From the IMG/VR virus record IMGVR_UViG_3300015179_000040: a DNA stretch of 8,405 nucleotides. One strand, 5' to 3'. Position 1 is the stretch's first letter. Each line of letters starts with the position of its first letter. Below, piece by piece: positions 1 through 6,970 of the stretch. Below the pieces are notes generated by a model. That model saw only the letters and a program-made list of their open reading frames with translations. It made no database searches and was not told the origin of the DNA. The position numbers and the translations under genes are program-made. This DNA comes from a virus (Duplodnaviria; Heunggongvirae; Uroviricota; Caudoviricetes).

Positions 1-1131
1 TCAAATGACCAGTTTTTTCCACTCCTTACCGCGTACATCGTTGTAAATATCGGTCATTTTTTGATTCGAATGACCTAGCAAAATTTTGGTATCAACCCCC
101 TGCTCTCTGAACAATCGCTCTGATAAAGATCTCTGCTCATGGAAAGAGGGTGGGGTGCCATTAGCACGCCAGTTGTAATCCACAGAATCCCGGGCTTTTT
201 TAAATGCAACTGTTAATGTTGCTGGCTTAGCCATCCCGCCGCGCTTAGCTGTCCCTTTCGCGTGATGGTGGTGCAATAGCCACGGACTAAGAACACAATC
301 GCGGCAGGATGACACTACATCATCCAGGGTGAGATTTAATTTATCGCAACGCAGAGCCAGAGGGATGGCAATCCGGGTTCCTGTTTTTTGCTGTTCGACA
401 TGAAGATAACCATCCCGGATATCCGAAAATTGCATTTTGCAAATATCTGAAAGGCGCTGGCCTGTCATCAGTGCCAGCAGCATACCGCGCTGTAAAAAGT
501 AACCATCCTTTTCCGCTGCGTTATAAATCATCATCCACTCATCAAAAGTCAGTCGCTGTCTTGATATCCGCACCTGCGGTTTTTTTTCCTATTTTGCAGG
601 GTTAAAGCCTGGCGGGACATCGCCCGTTTGCTGAGCTTCCCGGAAAACATCGATCAGTACCTTCCTGAAAATTTGTCCCATTCTGTTATGTCCTCTGGCC
701 TTGTACTCTTCCAGTACTGATACCACATCTTTTACGGTTATGGCATCTAACGGTCTGGTGCCAAAACGTTCATCAAATACCCTGAGAGGGGCCGCTTTCT
801 GTTTCAGCGTGTTGAGTTTGATCTCGCCGTTTTCATATCTTTCCTGTTGAATTTTTCTGTAATTATTCAGAAAAATGGTAACGGTTGATGAACCGCCGGT
901 ATCACTAATAATTTTCTCCTGCAGACTGAGCATTTGTTCCATTTGCTGCCGGGCAAGACGGCTGTTCGCTTCTGCTGCAATAGTTTCTGCCAGTTTCTGG
1001 TCAATACTGCCGAGACCGTGATTTTTGCCTGTTATGGGATGCCTGTAACGCCAGTAAACTTTGTTATTTCTTTTGTCAAAATACGGAGATAATCCCGGAA
1101 CATTGGTTTTATATTTTCGCGGGCGCGCCAT
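1..1131 (-). pseudogene. int: Lambda-family tyrosine integrase, full-length reading frame (376 codons) interrupted by a single in-frame TAG at 589-591
   Basis: ORFs 589..1131 and 1..573 are in the same frame, separated only by TAG plus five sense codons (GAA AAA AAA CCG CAG) before a GTG. The N-terminal part resembles the lambda Int arm-binding/core-binding region (RNNKVYWRYRHPITGKNHGLG vs lambda RNNGYYCYRDPRTGKEFGLG). The C-terminal part carries the catalytic residues in lambda-like context (TGQRLSDI, VEQQKTG, FHEQRSL, LLGHSN, TDIYNDVRG, with Tyr nucleophile). Reading-frame stop TGA at 3..1. Identity from motif memory, no search run. Confidence 0.8.
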
Positions 1132-3975: not shown

Positions 3976-4179
3976 TTACGGCGCTGTTTTTAATCCTGCC
4001 GGGATTTCGTTATTGTCCATGTGAATAACTTTATCGACCGGATAACAGTTGCCGGGAATTTTCTGTTCCGCTGCGGCAGCCATGCATTCTTTCATTGAGT
4101 TGTACATGCCGGTGATTGCATCAAGCGACTCACCAGTATTGAGATGTACAGTCAGAATGAGTACGAATAATGTGTTCAT
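3976..4179 (-). CDS. ydfD: YdfD-like small membrane protein (DUF1482-type; reported lysis protein in Qin)
   Basis: 67 aa from the ATG at 4179..4177 (MNTLFVLILTVHLNTGESLDAITGMYNSMKECMAAAAEQKIPGNCYPVDKV...). Hydrophobic N-terminus. Its ATG overlaps the dicB TGA stop (ATGA), indicating translational coupling. Sits in the same position relative to dicB as K-12 ydfD. The ORF track starts it at an upstream GTG (4185). Confidence 0.7.
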   Translation of the reverse strand: MNTLFVLILTVHLNTGESLDAITGMYNSMKECMAAAAEQKIPGNCYPVDKVIHMDNNEIPAGLKTAP

Positions 4180-4364
4180 CGCCACTCTCCGAAAATACCG
4201 AGTTTAAGAAGGGCAATTCTGGAGAGTATGGAATTGTCATTCAGCAGGTAGGGTTCATATTTTCTCATATTGATTGCATCCTCGGTGAAATCCCTGTTAC
4301 TGAGCAGAACACCAATATTAAAGCACCCGTCAGACGTATTAACGTTTGGTAGTGACGTTTCCAT
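4176..4364 (-). CDS. dicB: DicB-family cell division inhibitor (MinC-activating, FtsZ-ring inhibitor)
   Basis: 62-aa ORF METSLPNVNTSDGCFNIGVLLSNRDFTEDAINMRKYE... matches my memory of the E. coli DicB N-terminal signature (LPNVNTSEGCFEIGV...FTEDAIN.RK). SD GAGGA 8 nt upstream, overlapping the rha stop codon. Confidence 0.85.
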   Translation of the reverse strand: METSLPNVNTSDGCFNIGVLLSNRDFTEDAINMRKYEPYLLNDNSILSRIALLKLGIFGEWR

Positions 4365-4374
4365 TATCGCGTCC

Positions 4375-4932
4375 TCAACAATGAATTTTTAGCAATTGCT
4401 CCACAGTCATATTTTTAATTGCGCTCCGGTTTACAAGAGTCCATCCTTGTTTCTCCAGATAAAACCGGAAGGTATCCAGGGTGCAGACCATTGCGCCGTC
4501 AGGAACGGTTTCAGTGAATTTGATATTGCCGTGTTCGTCGAGACGGATAACCAGGGTGCGTCCGTCCCCGTGAATCATTTTGTCGGGAGACGGGGCGTTA
4601 TTCTGGCGCAGTTCTGCTTCCATGCGGTCGAACTCAGCAATGTATGCCTCTTTAAATGCAGCGGCTTTTTTGCCAGTGAAGCCCATCACCAGGAAAACGA
4701 AGCCGTTTTTGGTGATTTGGTACATTGGGAGTTTGCGCCCGGTTGAGTCGGTGTATTCGCTCGACACAAAATTGTGCTCAGTGAATTTTGCTGAACAGTC
4801 CAGATTGCGAATTTTATCCAACACTCGTTCGTGGCGTTTGCCAAAGAACTCGGCGATCGCAACAGACGTAGTGACAGCGCGACCATTTTCGATGGTTACG
4901 TCAGGGTGAGAAAGGGTAAGGATAGTAGCCAT
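4375..4932 (-). CDS. rha: Rha-family phage regulatory protein (Phage_pRha domain; antirepressor-like)
   Basis: Start chosen at the ATG 4932..4930 (MATILTLSHPDVTIENGRAVTTSVAIAEFFGKRHERVLDKIRNL...YQITKNGFVFLVMGFTGKKAAAFKEAYIAEFDRME), preceded by GGAGG at 8-nt spacing. These motifs are typical of the Rha family. The in-frame upstream extension to 5229 in the ORF track was rejected (see noticed_but_rejected). Confidence 0.75.
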   Translation of the reverse strand: MATILTLSHPDVTIENGRAVTTSVAIAEFFGKRHERVLDKIRNLDCSAKFTEHNFVSSEYTDSTGRKLPMYQITKNGFVFLVMGFTGKKAAAFKEAYIAEFDRMEAELRQNNAPSPDKMIHGDGRTLVIRLDEHGNIKFTETVPDGAMVCTLDTFRFYLEKQGWTLVNRSAIKNMTVEQLLKIHC

Positions 4933-5097
4933 GATGGCAGCCTCCGCGATGAATTTGATTAACTCACCACCGAGGTTTTCCACGACCATAAGGGTGGTGA
5001 GACGTACAGGGGTGGAAATACCGGTCATCACGGAACCCGGCCAGCCTTGCGGCTGCCCTGCACGCCCCACCATAATGCGAATGTGGCTGTGCTTAAC

Positions 5098-5128
5098 GCA
5101 TAAAAAAACCGCCTGAGCGCGGTTATGC
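5098..5128 (-). terminator. Rho-independent terminator upstream of rha, within the operon
   Basis: On the minus strand: GCAUAACCGC-GCUCAG-GCGGUUUUUUUAUGC. A short GC stem with 6-nt loop followed directly by a 7-U tract. The plus strand has no U tract after the stem. Confidence 0.5.
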
Positions 5129-5410
5129 GCCGTGAATGATTTCGGGTTTCCACGCCCGGCACCCGTTTTATGAGGTGCAGGTGCACTATAATTCCACCCG
5201 TTCTGGTTTTCAATAGCTACATTCAACATTTTCTCTACCTTTCATCACCGAAGTGAACTTTGTTGATGCGGTGCCTGGTGCCTCCAGGTGACGTTAACCA
5301 GTTAACAATTAACGTCGGATACAGAGCATTCCCGTTACGCCCGTAAAAGACCGCTTGTTTTAACTGTTCCGCGTGCGCTGAGCCGCATTCACCGCATCAC
5401 AAAATTCACT

Positions 5411-5472
5411 TTAAAAGGGGCGGGTATCATGGGAAAAACAAAACGGATACCCGCCAAAAGGTAATCAACATG
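5411..5472 (-). ncRNA. dicF: DicF-like small RNA (divergent homolog) ending in an intrinsic terminator
   Basis: Minus-strand sequence UGUUGAUUACCUUUUGGCGGGUAUCCGUUUUGUUUUUCCCAUGAUACCCGCCCCUUUUAA has a 10-bp stem GGCGGGUAUC/GAUACCCGCC followed by CCUUUU. It resembles, from memory, E. coli DicF (…UUUGGCGGUAUCAGUUUUACUCC…GCCGCCCUUUUU). Synteny fits: downstream of ydfC-like, upstream of dicB. Ends are approximate; not confirmed by a covariance model. Confidence 0.45.
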
Positions 5473-5795
5473 GGTTGTTGCAGCGGGGTTGTCACTCAGG
5501 CGTATGGTCAACCTGACAACCCGGTGGACATTTGCGAGGAACGGAGAACCCCCGCCATACTTACCGCCGCGCCATTTCGCGGAGTGCCACAACCGGAAGC
5601 GCACGGTCGACGAAAATTTAACGACAGGCTATCTATGAACCAGCAACCTCGCCGTGCGCTTTCGCGTTATGCTCTGACTTTTCAGAGAAATATCCTTTCA
5701 GTAAACTGTCAGTGCCGGATGCTCACCCGTGTCCGGCGCACACACTCCACCTCACCCGTGGAGAACTCCTTAATTACCAACCCTCAGGAGGGTGA

Positions 5796-6029
5796 ATGTT
5801 AAAATCAACGCTTATTGCTAAATGCCTTTATCAAAATCGCATGGTAAGCAGCATTTCAATAGGCGAGTCTGCAGTTAAAAGTATTTTCGAAGAGTACTTT
5901 CCCGGGCATGATTTTAATAAATGGAATACCAAATTACCGCCAGCAGTTTCAACGCGTATTCTGAAAGCAACTGAAAGAGCAAGTACAATTCGCGTTAACT
6001 ATTTCATTAAAGATTTGTGGGATCTTTGA
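5796..6029 (+). CDS. Hypothetical 77-aa protein, opposite strand to the operon, convergent with and overlapping the 3' end of the 135-aa ORF
   Basis: ORF with AGGAGG-type SD 4-5 nt before the ATG at 5796. Protein-like composition (MLKSTLIAKCLYQNRMVSSISIGESAVKSIFEEYFPGHDFNKWNTKLPP...). No homolog recognised. Could be a chance ORF in an AT-rich stretch. Confidence 0.3.
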   Translation: MLKSTLIAKCLYQNRMVSSISIGESAVKSIFEEYFPGHDFNKWNTKLPPAVSTRILKATERASTIRVNYFIKDLWDL

Positions 6030-6414
6030 TATCCACAGAGCCTAAAGTATGTGCATATGGATGTGCTGTTGTGCGCCCTCGCAGATTTGCATCATTTTCT
6101 AAATTCACTGAACGAAACAGGGCATCAACAAGGCTCTGTACAATGCAAAGGCAATCGAAGACTGTCGCCGTTTCTGTTTTGATTGATGAAAGAACATGGC
6201 CATTCACGCAAACAGAAATTACCCGTTTATTAACATCGCTTTCCTGCTTTTGATTATCAGAACCATATAGCCCTGAAAAAGCATTGCGCACATTACGAAC
6301 CATATTATCGATGGTTTCTTTTTTGGTGTATGCCGGGTCAATTTTCACCAGACTATCACCGAGTGTCGTTGCAGCAATTATCTGGATTTCTTTTGGTAAA
6401 TCTTTAAATTCCAT
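6007..6414 (-). CDS. Hypothetical 135-aa protein of unknown function, in operon orientation between ydfC-like and the dicF-like RNA
   Basis: ORF with SD GAGG 6 nt upstream of the ATG at 6414, starting 22 nt after the ydfC-like stop. AT-rich codon usage distinct from the neighbouring GC-rich stretch. No family recognised from memory. Confidence 0.65.
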   Translation of the reverse strand: MEFKDLPKEIQIIAATTLGDSLVKIDPAYTKKETIDNMVRNVRNAFSGLYGSDNQKQESDVNKRVISVCVNGHVLSSIKTETATVFDCLCIVQSLVDALFRSVNLENDANLRGRTTAHPYAHTLGSVDIKDPTNL

Positions 6415-6436: not shown

Positions 6437-6655
6437 TTAACGTGGGTATGTAATCATTCTGGCAATGCTTAATGCCGCTGCTTTTTCCAGATTGGTGATA
6501 TCCTGCTCCAGAGCGGACAGATTTTCAGCCTGCTTAGCCCTGGCTTCATTGGCCCATTTCAGGTCCTGCGCAGCCTTAATTTTCTGGTGCATCCACTCAT
6601 AAAGTTCATCATCGGTATAGTCTGGCGCGATGATGACGGGTTCTCGTTTCTGCAT
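6437..6655 (-). CDS. ydfC: YdfC-like small protein (DUF1317-type)
   Basis: 72-aa ORF MQKREPVIIAPDYTDDELYEWMHQKIKAAQDLKWANEARAKQAENLSALEQ... with SD GAGGAA 7 nt upstream. Matches my memory of Qin YdfC in length and sequence. Confidence 0.75.
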   Translation of the reverse strand: MQKREPVIIAPDYTDDELYEWMHQKIKAAQDLKWANEARAKQAENLSALEQDITNLEKAAALSIARMITYPR

Positions 6656-6684
6656 ACTGATTCCTCGCGGTGCTGCTTCGCTTA

Positions 6685-6813
6685 TCAGCCGTTAGATTTT
6701 GCCGGGCTGGAAAGCGCCTGTATAAACTCACTGAAGCTGAGAGTTTCTTCGCCTTTGGCAAGGCCTTCGAAGTATTCTTCGTAAGCCTTTTCCATGATTG
6801 TGTCGAAATCCAT
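6685..6813 (-). CDS. ydfB: YdfB-like small protein (42 aa)
   Basis: Hand translation (below the ORF-track length cut-off): MDFDTIMEKAYEEYFEGLAKGEETLSFSEFIQALSSPAKSNG. ATG 6813..6811 lies 1 nt after the ydfA-like TGA stop, SD AGGTG upstream. Length and position match Qin ydfB. Confidence 0.6.
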   Translation of the reverse strand: MDFDTIMEKAYEEYFEGLAKGEETLSFSEFIQALSSPAKSNG

Positions 6814-6814
6814 A

Positions 6815-6970
6815 TCACTCACCTGAGTTTCTTTCCAGCCAGCGACGGGCACCATTTTCGGTTTTAAACGTTTTGCTTTTGGTATACGTCATCGCGGTGA
6901 ACGTACCGTCCTGGTTGGGGAACACACCACATACCAGAGATTCGTTGTTGCCAAGATCGATAGTATCCAT
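6815..6970 (-). CDS. ydfA: YdfA-like small protein (51 aa, DUF1391-type)
   Basis: Hand translation (not in ORF track): MDTIDLGNNESLVCGVFPNQDGTFTAMTYTKSKTFKTENGARRWLERNSGE. SD GAGG about 6 nt upstream of the ATG at 6970..6968. First gene after the predicted operon promoter. Confidence 0.65.
   Translation of the reverse strand: MDTIDLGNNESLVCGVFPNQDGTFTAMTYTKSKTFKTENGARRWLERNSGE

What the first reader, a model, noticed from the sequence alone, without database searches (positions are those of the whole stretch)
5411..5522. DicF-like sRNA variant with a diverged 5' half and an upstream 9-bp processing-type hairpin
The terminator stem-loop and U-rich core resemble DicF, but the 5' part and the stem sequence differ from the K-12 sequence as I remember it. 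That could change target pairing (ftsZ, manX, xylR, pykA in K-12). Just upstream on the same strand a hairpin (5486-5494 pairing with 5514-5522) could be the RNase III/RNase E processing site that releases the sRNA from the operon transcript.
Basis: partly seen in the sequence, partly recalled or inferred. Interest (0 to 1): 0.55.

Follow-up and report, generated by a model that had tools for sequence, protein, structure and literature searches.

The report
Diverged allele of the DicF locus
At the place where Qin-like E. coli prophages encode the cell-division-blocking small RNA DicF, this window carries a rarer replacement hairpin that keeps the terminator shape but has lost the sequences DicF uses to bind ftsZ, xylR and pykA, so it is a relative of DicF that probably does not do DicF's known job.

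Summary
The locus is the dicF slot of a Qin/PPompW-type prophage early operon: ydfA-ydfB-ydfC-orf135-[slot]-STnc100-like element-isrK-C4-ash/rha-dicB-DUF1482-exonuclease-xis-int. The flanks are almost identical to K-12, but the roughly 60-nt core is replaced. It shares 38 of 63 aligned columns with K-12 DicF.

The Rfam DicF model scores K-12 at 76.7 bits and NCTC86 at 72.5 bits, but finds nothing here even at E<=10.

A flank-anchored harvest shows the slot is mosaic: two 5' modules combined with at least five hairpin types. The B-type core family occurs in about 152-190 of 5426 complete E. coli genomes, and 21 records match this 65-nt core at 99% or better.

Canonical DicF is significantly complementary to ftsZ, xylR and pykA. 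The window allele is at chance for all of these.

The upstream hairpin is conserved. However, the RNase III end mapped in K-12 projects into a different stem at 5594-5664.

Best reading: a terminator plus a probably processed small RNA with DicF's seeds lost. This is a new variant of a known kind. Expression and targets are untested.

The parts
5419..5455 (-). Slot hairpin, allele 'B1': perfect 10-bp stem (GGCGGGUAUC / GAUACCCGCC) with the 17-nt loop CGUUUUGUUUUUCCCAU
   Evidence: I5. The same hairpin is identical in 17 of 21 B1 loci whose flanking DNA differs.
5413..5418 (-). CC spacer plus U4 tract after the stem, the intrinsic-terminator tail. K-12 has C plus U5.
   Evidence: Read from the sequence and alignment A1.
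5456..5476 (-). 'B-type' 5' module AACCCATGTTGATTACCTTTT. It replaces the K-12 module GCCCTCTGTTATCAATTTTCTGGTGACGTTT and so lacks DicF's 5' seed UUUCUGGUGACG.
5486..5522 (-). In alignment A1 its arms are identical in K-12, NCTC86 and TD225-C4; two loop positions differ.
   Evidence: I7.
5594..5664 (-). Longer conserved stem (13-nt arms, extendable to about 25 bp with bulges). The projected position of the K-12 RNase III-generated 5' end of the 190-nt precursor falls in its 3' arm.
   Evidence: (I4). The projection uses lengths in PMC10448788, the K-12 dicF coordinates and alignment A1. This is an inference.
5240..5411 (-). Strongly structured element immediately 3' of the slot, closed by a stem of about 23 bp (5251-5273 with 5390-5411). 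It is a sub-threshold match to Rfam STnc100.
   Evidence: 35.6 bits, below the gathering score of 47; I1, I3; z = -5.8.
4176..4364 (-). dicB (cell-division inhibitor), the downstream gene of the operon
   Evidence: PF05358, 111.7 bits.
6437..6970 (-). ydfA (6815-6970), ydfB (6685-6813) and ydfC (6437-6655), the upstream genes of the operon. Candidate promoters lie at 7111-7082 and 7070-7042.

Best explanation
This is a diverged allele of the dicF slot in the early-left (dicBF-type) operon of a Qin/PPompW-like lambdoid prophage.

Shown here:
- It is homologous to dicF by position.
- It is linked to canonical dicF by a graded series of intermediate alleles.
- It keeps a stable hairpin plus U-tract in the operon's direction.
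- It has lost DicF's 5' seed and DicF's extended complementarity to ftsZ, xylR and pykA.

Inferred mechanism:
- As in K-12, the operon transcript starting upstream of ydfA partly terminates at this hairpin, which limits read-through into isrK/C4, ash/rha and the toxic dicB.
- RNase III probably cuts in the 5594-5664 stem.
- RNase E probably cuts in the A/U-rich stretch GAUUACCUUUU just 5' of the hairpin.
- Together these would release a small RNA of about 47-52 nt. It would consist of little more than the terminator hairpin, with a U-rich/CCC loop and the U4-hairpin-U4 layout typical of Hfq binding.

That RNA is not a functional equivalent of DicF. If it acts in trans, it uses its loop on targets that are still unknown.
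For: Synteny and flanks.

Controls for the Rfam result: the DicF model hits K-12 (76.7 bits) and NCTC86 (72.5 bits), but not this window or TD225-C4, which has the same allele.

Graded series: allele D scores 43.5 bits, alleles F and C score 34.7 and 34.1 bits, and alleles B1, B2 and E give no hit.

Mosaic structure: two 5' modules are combined with several hairpins, joined at the shared TTTGGCGG.

Hairpin stability.

Selection on the stem: the basal GGCGG/CCGCC is invariant, there is one compensatory pair (U-A versus C-G) between B and C/D alleles, and the commonest stem variant is GC to GU.

B1 core: identical in 17 of 21 loci whose DNA 300-600 nt upstream and 60-300 nt downstream is only 77-83% identical in many cases.

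Position relative to division inhibitors: every allele class sits directly upstream of DicB or Kil.

Loss of DicF pairing:
- ftsZ, loop plus 3' arm: -15.3 kcal/mol for the window (53% of shuffles as good) against -27.9 for K-12 (0.1%).
- ftsZ, loop only: rank 12 of 40 translation-initiation regions for the window against 5 of 40 for K-12.
- xylR and pykA: K-12 reaches 0 of 1000 shuffles, the window allele is at chance.

Processing model: taken from PMC10448788. No promoter-like site lies between orf135 and the slot on this strand.
Against: - There are no expression data. Termination, processing and stability of a small RNA are all inferred from K-12.
- The U-tract is short (4 U after a CC spacer) and the loop is long (17 nt). 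The simple terminator scan did not call the full hairpin.
- With a leader of only 6-10 nt there is no obvious single-stranded seed.
- Covariation support is thin: one compensatory pair.
- Identity of the core across loci could reflect recent spread rather than selection.
- The loop can still form a 9-bp, wobble-containing duplex with the ftsZ Shine-Dalgarno region (-9.7 kcal/mol). Weak ftsZ repression is therefore not excluded.
Confidence: 0.6

Rival explanations
1. It is only a cis-acting intrinsic terminator or attenuator of the early-left operon that gates expression of dicB/kil. The released fragment has no trans-acting role, and allele diversity is drift constrained only by the need to keep a hairpin.
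For: - What is common to all alleles is the GGCGG/CCGCC stem base, the T-run and the position just upstream of DicB or Kil.
- Loops and 3' arms vary freely.
- The window allele lacks any long single-stranded seed and shows no better-than-chance pairing to the tested targets.
- No allele-specific complementary site was found in the prophage loci.
Against: - Within the B family the loop core CGUUUU..GUUUU(U)CCC is retained in B1, B2 and B3 although the loop ends differ.
- The B1 core is identical across loci with different flanks.
- The canonical allele of the same slot is a proven trans-acting Hfq sRNA (PMC5069750).
- A tandem duplicate of the cassette exists in a sequenced phage.
Confidence: 0.3
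2. It is a functional DicF orthologue that still represses ftsZ (and perhaps other DicF targets) through a shorter loop-to-Shine-Dalgarno interaction.
For: - Same slot and same operon, with dicB downstream.
- The loop segment GUUUUUCCC can pair with ftsZ -11..-2, covering the GGAG (hybrid -9.7 kcal/mol; total -7.1, rank 5 of 40 in an accessibility-weighted heuristic).
- The GUUUU start of the loop is shared with K-12 DicF.
Against: - That heuristic did not recover the validated K-12 DicF-ftsZ pair (rank 19 of 40), so it has no discriminating power.
- In tests where K-12 DicF is significant, the window allele is at chance: 53% of shuffles as good; 42% of shuffles, rank 12 of 40.
- The upstream ftsZ pairing block, shown to matter by the DicF23/ftsZcomp23 mutants (PMC5069750), has no counterpart.
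- The Rfam model gives no hit.
Confidence: 0.05
3. It is a decaying remnant of dicF in a defective prophage, with no selected function.
For: - The window's integrase carries an in-frame stop, so this prophage is probably cryptic.
- Some slot alleles are clearly broken. L158 and L169 have lost the 5' arm, and there are singleton stem-disrupting substitutions.
Against: - The window allele has a perfect 10-bp stem that is more stable than K-12's (-17.2 against -15.9 kcal/mol).
- It is identical in many independent loci.
- B-type cores occur in about 150-190 complete E. coli genomes.
- A B-type cassette is present, duplicated, in a complete phage genome record.
Confidence: 0.05

Closest known systems
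DicF sRNA of the Qin prophage dicBF operon (Rfam RF00039)
   Same: - Same slot between the ydfABC-type genes and dicB.
- Near-identical flanks, including the upstream hairpin, the candidate RNase III stem and the downstream STnc100-like element.
- Shared GGCGG..CCGCC stem base, the GGUAUC-N-GUUUU segment and the U-tail.
- Same strand and operon logic.
   Different: - Only 38 of 63 aligned columns are identical.
- The 12-nt 5' seed is absent.
- The distal loop and 3' arm are replaced.
- The stem is perfect (10 bp) instead of bulged.
- There is no Rfam hit.
- Complementarity to ftsZ, xylR and pykA is lost.
Other non-canonical alleles of the same slot found here (B2, B3, C, D, E, F)
   Same: - B2 and B3 share the 5' module, the stem and the loop core CGUUUU..GUUUU(U)CCC.
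- C and F share the 5' module and a related stem.
- D combines the canonical 5' module with a C-like hairpin.
- All lie upstream of DicB or Kil.
   Different: - Loop sequences differ.
- C, D and F still give weak DicF model scores (34-43.5 bits), whereas B1, B2 and E give none.
- None of them has been described in the papers I could search.
Small RNAs made as by-products of phage or operon terminators and RNase E processing (for example StxS from the terminated pR' transcript of Stx phages, PMC7547250; 3'-end-derived Hfq sRNAs, PMC9438474)
   Same: The RNA is not made from its own promoter. It comes from a longer transcript whose terminator hairpin doubles as the sRNA body and Hfq-binding module.
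   Different: For this allele, neither the transcript ends nor any target is known.
Rfam STnc100 (RF02076)
   Same: The structured element immediately 3' of the slot (5259-5406) matches the central part of the model. In loci with other alleles the match extends over model positions 1-206 and overlaps the slot hairpin's 3' end.
   Different: The score is below gathering (35.6 against 47 bits). The first 21 model positions, which overlap the hairpin, do not align in this allele.

Membership tests
DicF (RF00039) | Scores at or above the family's gathering score (48 bits) with the Rfam covariance model | tested here: not met
   No hit at gathering or at E<=10 on 5250-5700, where the weakest listed chance hits score about 14.7 bits. 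Positive controls: K-12 76.7 bits and NCTC86 72.5 bits.
DicF (RF00039) | Encoded in the dicBF-type operon, between the ydfABC-type genes and dicB, on the operon strand | tested here: met
   In the harvested loci, 16 of 16 B1 alleles have DicB downstream.
DicF (RF00039) | 3' terminator hairpin with a GGCGG/CCGCC base followed by a U-run | tested here: met
   The U-run is shorter (4 against 5) and is preceded by CC.
DicF (RF00039) | Extended complementarity of the loop and 3' arm to the ftsZ translation-initiation region (the basis of division inhibition) | tested here: not met
   K-12 -27.9 kcal/mol (1 of 1000 shuffles as good); window -15.3 (533 of 1000)., loop only: K-12 rank 5 of 40, window rank 12 of 40.
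DicF (RF00039) | 5' single-stranded seed (UUUCUGGUGACG) that pairs with xylR | tested here: not met
   The seed is absent from the B-type 5' module. xylR pairing: K-12 -19.7 kcal/mol (0 of 1000 shuffles); window -6.0 (935 of 1000).
DicF (RF00039) | [quoted passage not shown] | not testable with these tools
   These features are known for K-12 only (PMC10448788, PMC5069750). Here, the upstream stems and an A/U-rich stretch are conserved.
Rho-independent terminator | G+C-rich stem directly followed by a U-tract on the transcribed strand | tested here: inconclusive
   Stable stem (-17.2 kcal/mol) plus CCUUUU. The 17-nt loop and 4-U tract fall outside the simple scan's rules, and that scan called only an inner 5-pair hairpin at 5455-5442. 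The canonical allele also has a long loop and is reported to end the ydfABC-dicF transcript (PMC10448788).

The most novel reading that the evidence does not exclude
The dicF slot of lambdoid prophages is a swappable seed cassette. The conserved flanks supply transcription, processing and termination, while discrete alleles (canonical, B1/B2/B3, C, D and others) encode different small RNAs with different regulons. Under this reading the window's B1 RNA is an undescribed Hfq-type or loop-acting sRNA that controls host or competing-phage genes other than ftsZ. The well-known DicF would then be only one member of a polymorphic prophage sRNA locus.
Probability: 0.3. Interest if true: 0.7.

Novelty: new variant of a known kind. 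Interest (0 to 1): 0.45.

Why it matters
DicF is a textbook prophage sRNA, and surveys of its conservation have used near-identical copies (more than 99% identity, PMC5069750). This work shows that the same slot holds several discrete alleles that homology- and Rfam-based annotation miss. At least this one has lost every tested DicF target site while keeping the terminator architecture and the link to dicB.

Two consequences follow. First, the presence of a dicBF operon cannot be taken to mean the presence of DicF-mediated ftsZ, xylR or pykA control. This matters for the roughly 3% of complete E. coli genomes, including several named ETEC isolates, that carry B-type alleles. Second, the locus offers a natural series for asking how an sRNA changes or loses its seed while its biogenesis signals stay fixed.

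Tried and rejected
1. Accessibility-weighted target ranking against 40 K-12 translation-initiation regions. I rejected it as uninformative because the validated DicF-ftsZ pair ranked only 19 of 40.

2. Full-length duplex energies. These give unrealistic end-to-end duplexes and z-scores near -1 even for K-12, so I replaced them with segment tests.

3. A search for an allele-specific, co-varying target inside the prophage loci using complementary 10-mers. It returned only matches expected by chance that are not allele-specific, for example CATGGGAAAAA in the exonuclease gene, which is also present in canonical loci.

4. Coding explanations.
   - ORFs 5389-5604 (-) and 5470-5802 (+) have no Pfam hit, and no CDS is annotated there in the RefSeq homologues.
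   - A plus-strand mini-ORF (5430-5465, MGKTKRIPAKR) loses its ATG in TD225-C4 and in the B2 alleles.

5. Other described RNA families. No hit overlaps the hairpin at E<=10. The listed hits in that stretch are the sub-threshold STnc100 match just downstream and two chance-level hits upstream.

6. RefSeq annotation as evidence. No feature lies under the match, but the same is true for canonical dicF in NCTC86, so this is uninformative.

7. An apparent good pairing of the B loops with ilvH and ftsA. A 9-mer match among 40 regions is expected by chance, so I did not pursue it.

8. Literature search for described variants. None was found. Melson and Kendall 2019 is not held in the library.

Full report
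**Observation**

On the minus strand the window reads ...CAACAACCCATGTTGATTACCTTTT GGCGGGTATC CGTTTTGTTTTTCCCAT GATACCCGCC CC TTTT AAAGTG....

- The two 10-nt arms (5455-5446 and 5428-5419) are perfectly complementary, with 17 nt between them (repeat I5).
- As RNA the 71-nt stretch folds into this hairpin at -17.2 kcal/mol, z = -3.1.
It is part of the minimum-free-energy fold.
- On the plus strand the hairpin is followed by AAAAGG, so it is terminator-like only for the minus strand.

**What the locus is**

Rfam at gathering thresholds finds C4 (4990-5077, minus) and isrK (5102-5178, minus) but no DicF. A permissive scan of 5250-5700 (E<=10) also finds no DicF. It finds only a sub-threshold STnc100 match at 5259-5406.

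The surroundings nevertheless identify the dicF slot.

- The 341 nt around it match 4566 of 5426 complete E. coli genomes.
- In annotated relatives the matching place lies between ydfA/ydfB/ydfC and dicB.
- In the window, dicB is 4176-4364 (Pfam DicB 111.7 bits).
- A DUF1482 gene, an 824-aa exonuclease, excisionase and integrase follow.
- Upstream lie ydfA (DUF1391), ydfB, ydfC (97% identical to K-12) and a DicA-like HTH repressor.
- Promoter-like sites precede ydfA. None precedes the slot on this strand.

Aligned with the K-12 dicF region (dicF = L001 2883-2935), the flanks are almost invariant. A core of about 60 nt is replaced; 38 of 63 aligned columns are identical. The Rfam result is a real negative, because the same model scores K-12 at 76.7 bits and NCTC86 at 72.5 bits and gives nothing for TD225-C4, which carries the window-type allele.

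**Allele diversity**

I anchored on the conserved flanks (CCCCGCTGCAAC N50-80 TTTAAAGTGAATTTTG) and recovered 134 slots with 26 distinct cores from viral and genome collections. Anchoring on the window's 5' module gave 84 loci.

The slot is mosaic.

- There are two 5' modules. The canonical one contains DicF's 5' seed UUUCUGGUGACG. The 'B' module, AACCCATGTTGATTACCTTTT, lacks it.
- These are combined with several hairpins: canonical; B1 (this window, 21 loci); B2 (28 loci); B3 (one phage); C (35 loci); D (canonical 5' module with a C-like hairpin); and a short E form in E. albertii.
- Rfam scores form a gradient: canonical 72-77 bits, D 43.5, F 34.7, C 34.1, and B1, B2 and E no hit. All non-canonical alleles fall below the gathering score.
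- Among complete E. coli genomes, the 65-nt B1 core matches 190 genomes. Of these, 152 cover at least 80% of the query. By record, 21 match at 99% or better, and several of those listed are named ETEC isolates.
- All classes sit immediately upstream of DicB or, less often, Kil.

**Is the hairpin selected?**

- The basal GGCGG/CCGCC is invariant.
- Between B and C/D alleles one pair changes on both sides (U-A to C-G).
- The commonest stem variant (CCGCC to CCGTC, more than 10 loci) keeps pairing as G-U. Disruptive substitutions are singletons or doubletons.
- Formal covariation is therefore thin but consistent.
- The B1 core is identical in 17 of 21 loci, although DNA 300-600 nt upstream and 60-300 nt downstream is often only 77-83% identical.
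- Within the B family the loop core CGUUUU..GUUUU(U)CCC is retained while the loop ends vary.

**Does it keep DicF's targets?**

Published work shows that DicF pairs with the ftsZ ribosome-binding region through its 3' part and with xylR through its 5' end (PMC5069750). I used hybridisation energies with shuffles as the null.

| Test | K-12 DicF | Window allele |
|---|---|---|
| Loop plus 3' arm vs ftsZ | -27.9 kcal/mol, 0.1% of shuffles as good | -15.3, 53% |
| Loop only vs ftsZ Shine-Dalgarno region | -12.8, 2.6% of shuffles, rank 5/40 | -9.7, 42% of shuffles, rank 12/40 |
| 5' seed vs xylR | -19.7, 0/1000 | fraction 0.94 |
| 3' part vs pykA | -26.4, 0/1000 | fraction 0.16 |

- For ftsZ, alleles B2, C and D are also at chance.
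- Across all segment-target tests of ftsZ, xylR, pykA and manX, the window allele's fractions range from 0.16 to 0.96.
- manX is not informative, because K-12 itself is not significant in this test.
- An accessibility-weighted heuristic failed its positive control and was discarded.
- On complementarity, then, this allele is not a DicF. A weak 9-bp loop-to-Shine-Dalgarno contact with ftsZ remains possible but is not distinguishable from generic anti-Shine-Dalgarno pairing.

**Processing**

In K-12, DicF comes from the transcript that starts upstream of ydfA. RNase III creates the 5' end of a 190-nt species and RNase E the 5' end of the 53-nt species (PMC10448788, citing Faubladier 1990).

- Counting 190 nt back from the terminator and transferring through alignment A1 puts the RNase III end at about window 5595. 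That is inside the 3' arm of a conserved longer stem (5594-5606 with 5652-5664). This is an inference from lengths.
Its arms are identical in the four aligned loci, but it is short (9 bp). It is more likely a structural element of the precursor than a cleavage site.
- In the B module, the stretch homologous to the K-12 RNase E site is GAUUACCUUUU. Cleavage there would leave a leader of only 6-10 nt (inference).

**Mechanism and verdict**

The best-supported reading has three parts.

- The element is a diverged allele of dicF.
- It acts in cis as the terminator that gates read-through into isrK/C4-ash/rha-dicB.
- It probably yields a small hairpin RNA of about 50 nt whose DicF seeds are gone. 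Any trans function would rest on the U-rich/CCC loop and unknown targets.

Rivals are a terminator-only role, residual DicF function, and decay. Decay is disfavoured by the perfect stem, by recurrence across loci and by presence in a complete phage genome.

No paper describing these alleles was found in the searchable library. The published conservation survey considered only copies more than 99% identical (PMC5069750).

I rate it a new variant of a known kind, of moderate interest. Expression and target data are needed to decide between an undescribed sRNA and a bare terminator.

Noticed in passing
window 4990-5229 (minus strand): The Rfam isrK (5102-5178) and C4 (4990-5077) RNAs lie inside the 5' third of the 284-aa ORF 4375-5229. 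That part of the ORF matches Pfam Phage_ASH (aa 14-109), ahead of a Phage_pRha domain. A promoter-like site TTGAAA-17-TATAGT (5213-5185) ends 7 nt before the isrK start. This suggests a P1/P7-type or Gifsy-type antisense-RNA-controlled antirepressor module inserted between the dicF slot and dicB. The annotated Rha start may also be too far upstream.
   Followed up: partly
window 1-1131 (minus strand): The lambda-type integrase (Arm-binding, central and catalytic domains) is interrupted by an in-frame stop (...FNPAK*EKKPQ...) near 589-591. This prophage copy is therefore probably unable to excise, unless the stop is a sequencing error.
   Followed up: partly
L211 (PP818812.1, 'Actinobacillus phage vB_Apl-pPE4') 3395-3575: This is the only deposited phage genome with a B-type core. 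It carries the cassette as a perfect tandem duplicate (5' module, hairpin with loop CGTTTTGTTTTCCCTGC, T-run and 17 nt). It lies directly after a DicA-like repressor leader with no ydfABC genes, and is followed by Kil instead of DicB. An E. coli-type lambdoid early region in a phage assigned to Actinobacillus is odd in itself.
   Followed up: partly
window 5240-5411 (minus strand): This 170-nt element immediately 3' of the slot is very strongly structured (-91.3 kcal/mol for the 236-nt stretch 5240-5475, which also includes the slot hairpin; z = -5.8). It is closed by a stem of about 23 bp (5251-5273 with 5390-5411). It matches Rfam STnc100 below threshold (35.6 against 47 bits) and is conserved in K-12 and all slot alleles.
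   Followed up: partly
window 5796-6029 (plus strand) and 6007-6414 (minus strand): Two ORFs without Pfam matches sit between ydfC and the slot. One is a 135-aa ORF on the operon strand, present upstream of 17 of 17 B1 loci but only 34 of 97 canonical loci. The other is a convergent 77-aa ORF that RefSeq annotates as hypothetical in homologous prophages. Their 3' ends overlap.
   Followed up: no
L158 and L169 (IMG/VR loci): These slot alleles have lost the 5' arm of the C-type hairpin (…GATTACCTTTTCATTGCTGGCTGATGTCCGTCC…). This shows that some copies of the slot are decaying.
   Followed up: no
B1-type loci, about 200 nt downstream of the core (not checked in the window itself): A 10-mer, CCAAACGTCA, complementary to the 5' seed region of canonical DicF occurs on the operon strand in 17 of 21 B1 loci and 9 of 28 B2 loci. 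It did not reach the listing threshold in canonical loci. A match of this length is expected by chance, but it would allow cross-talk from a co-resident canonical DicF.
   Followed up: no
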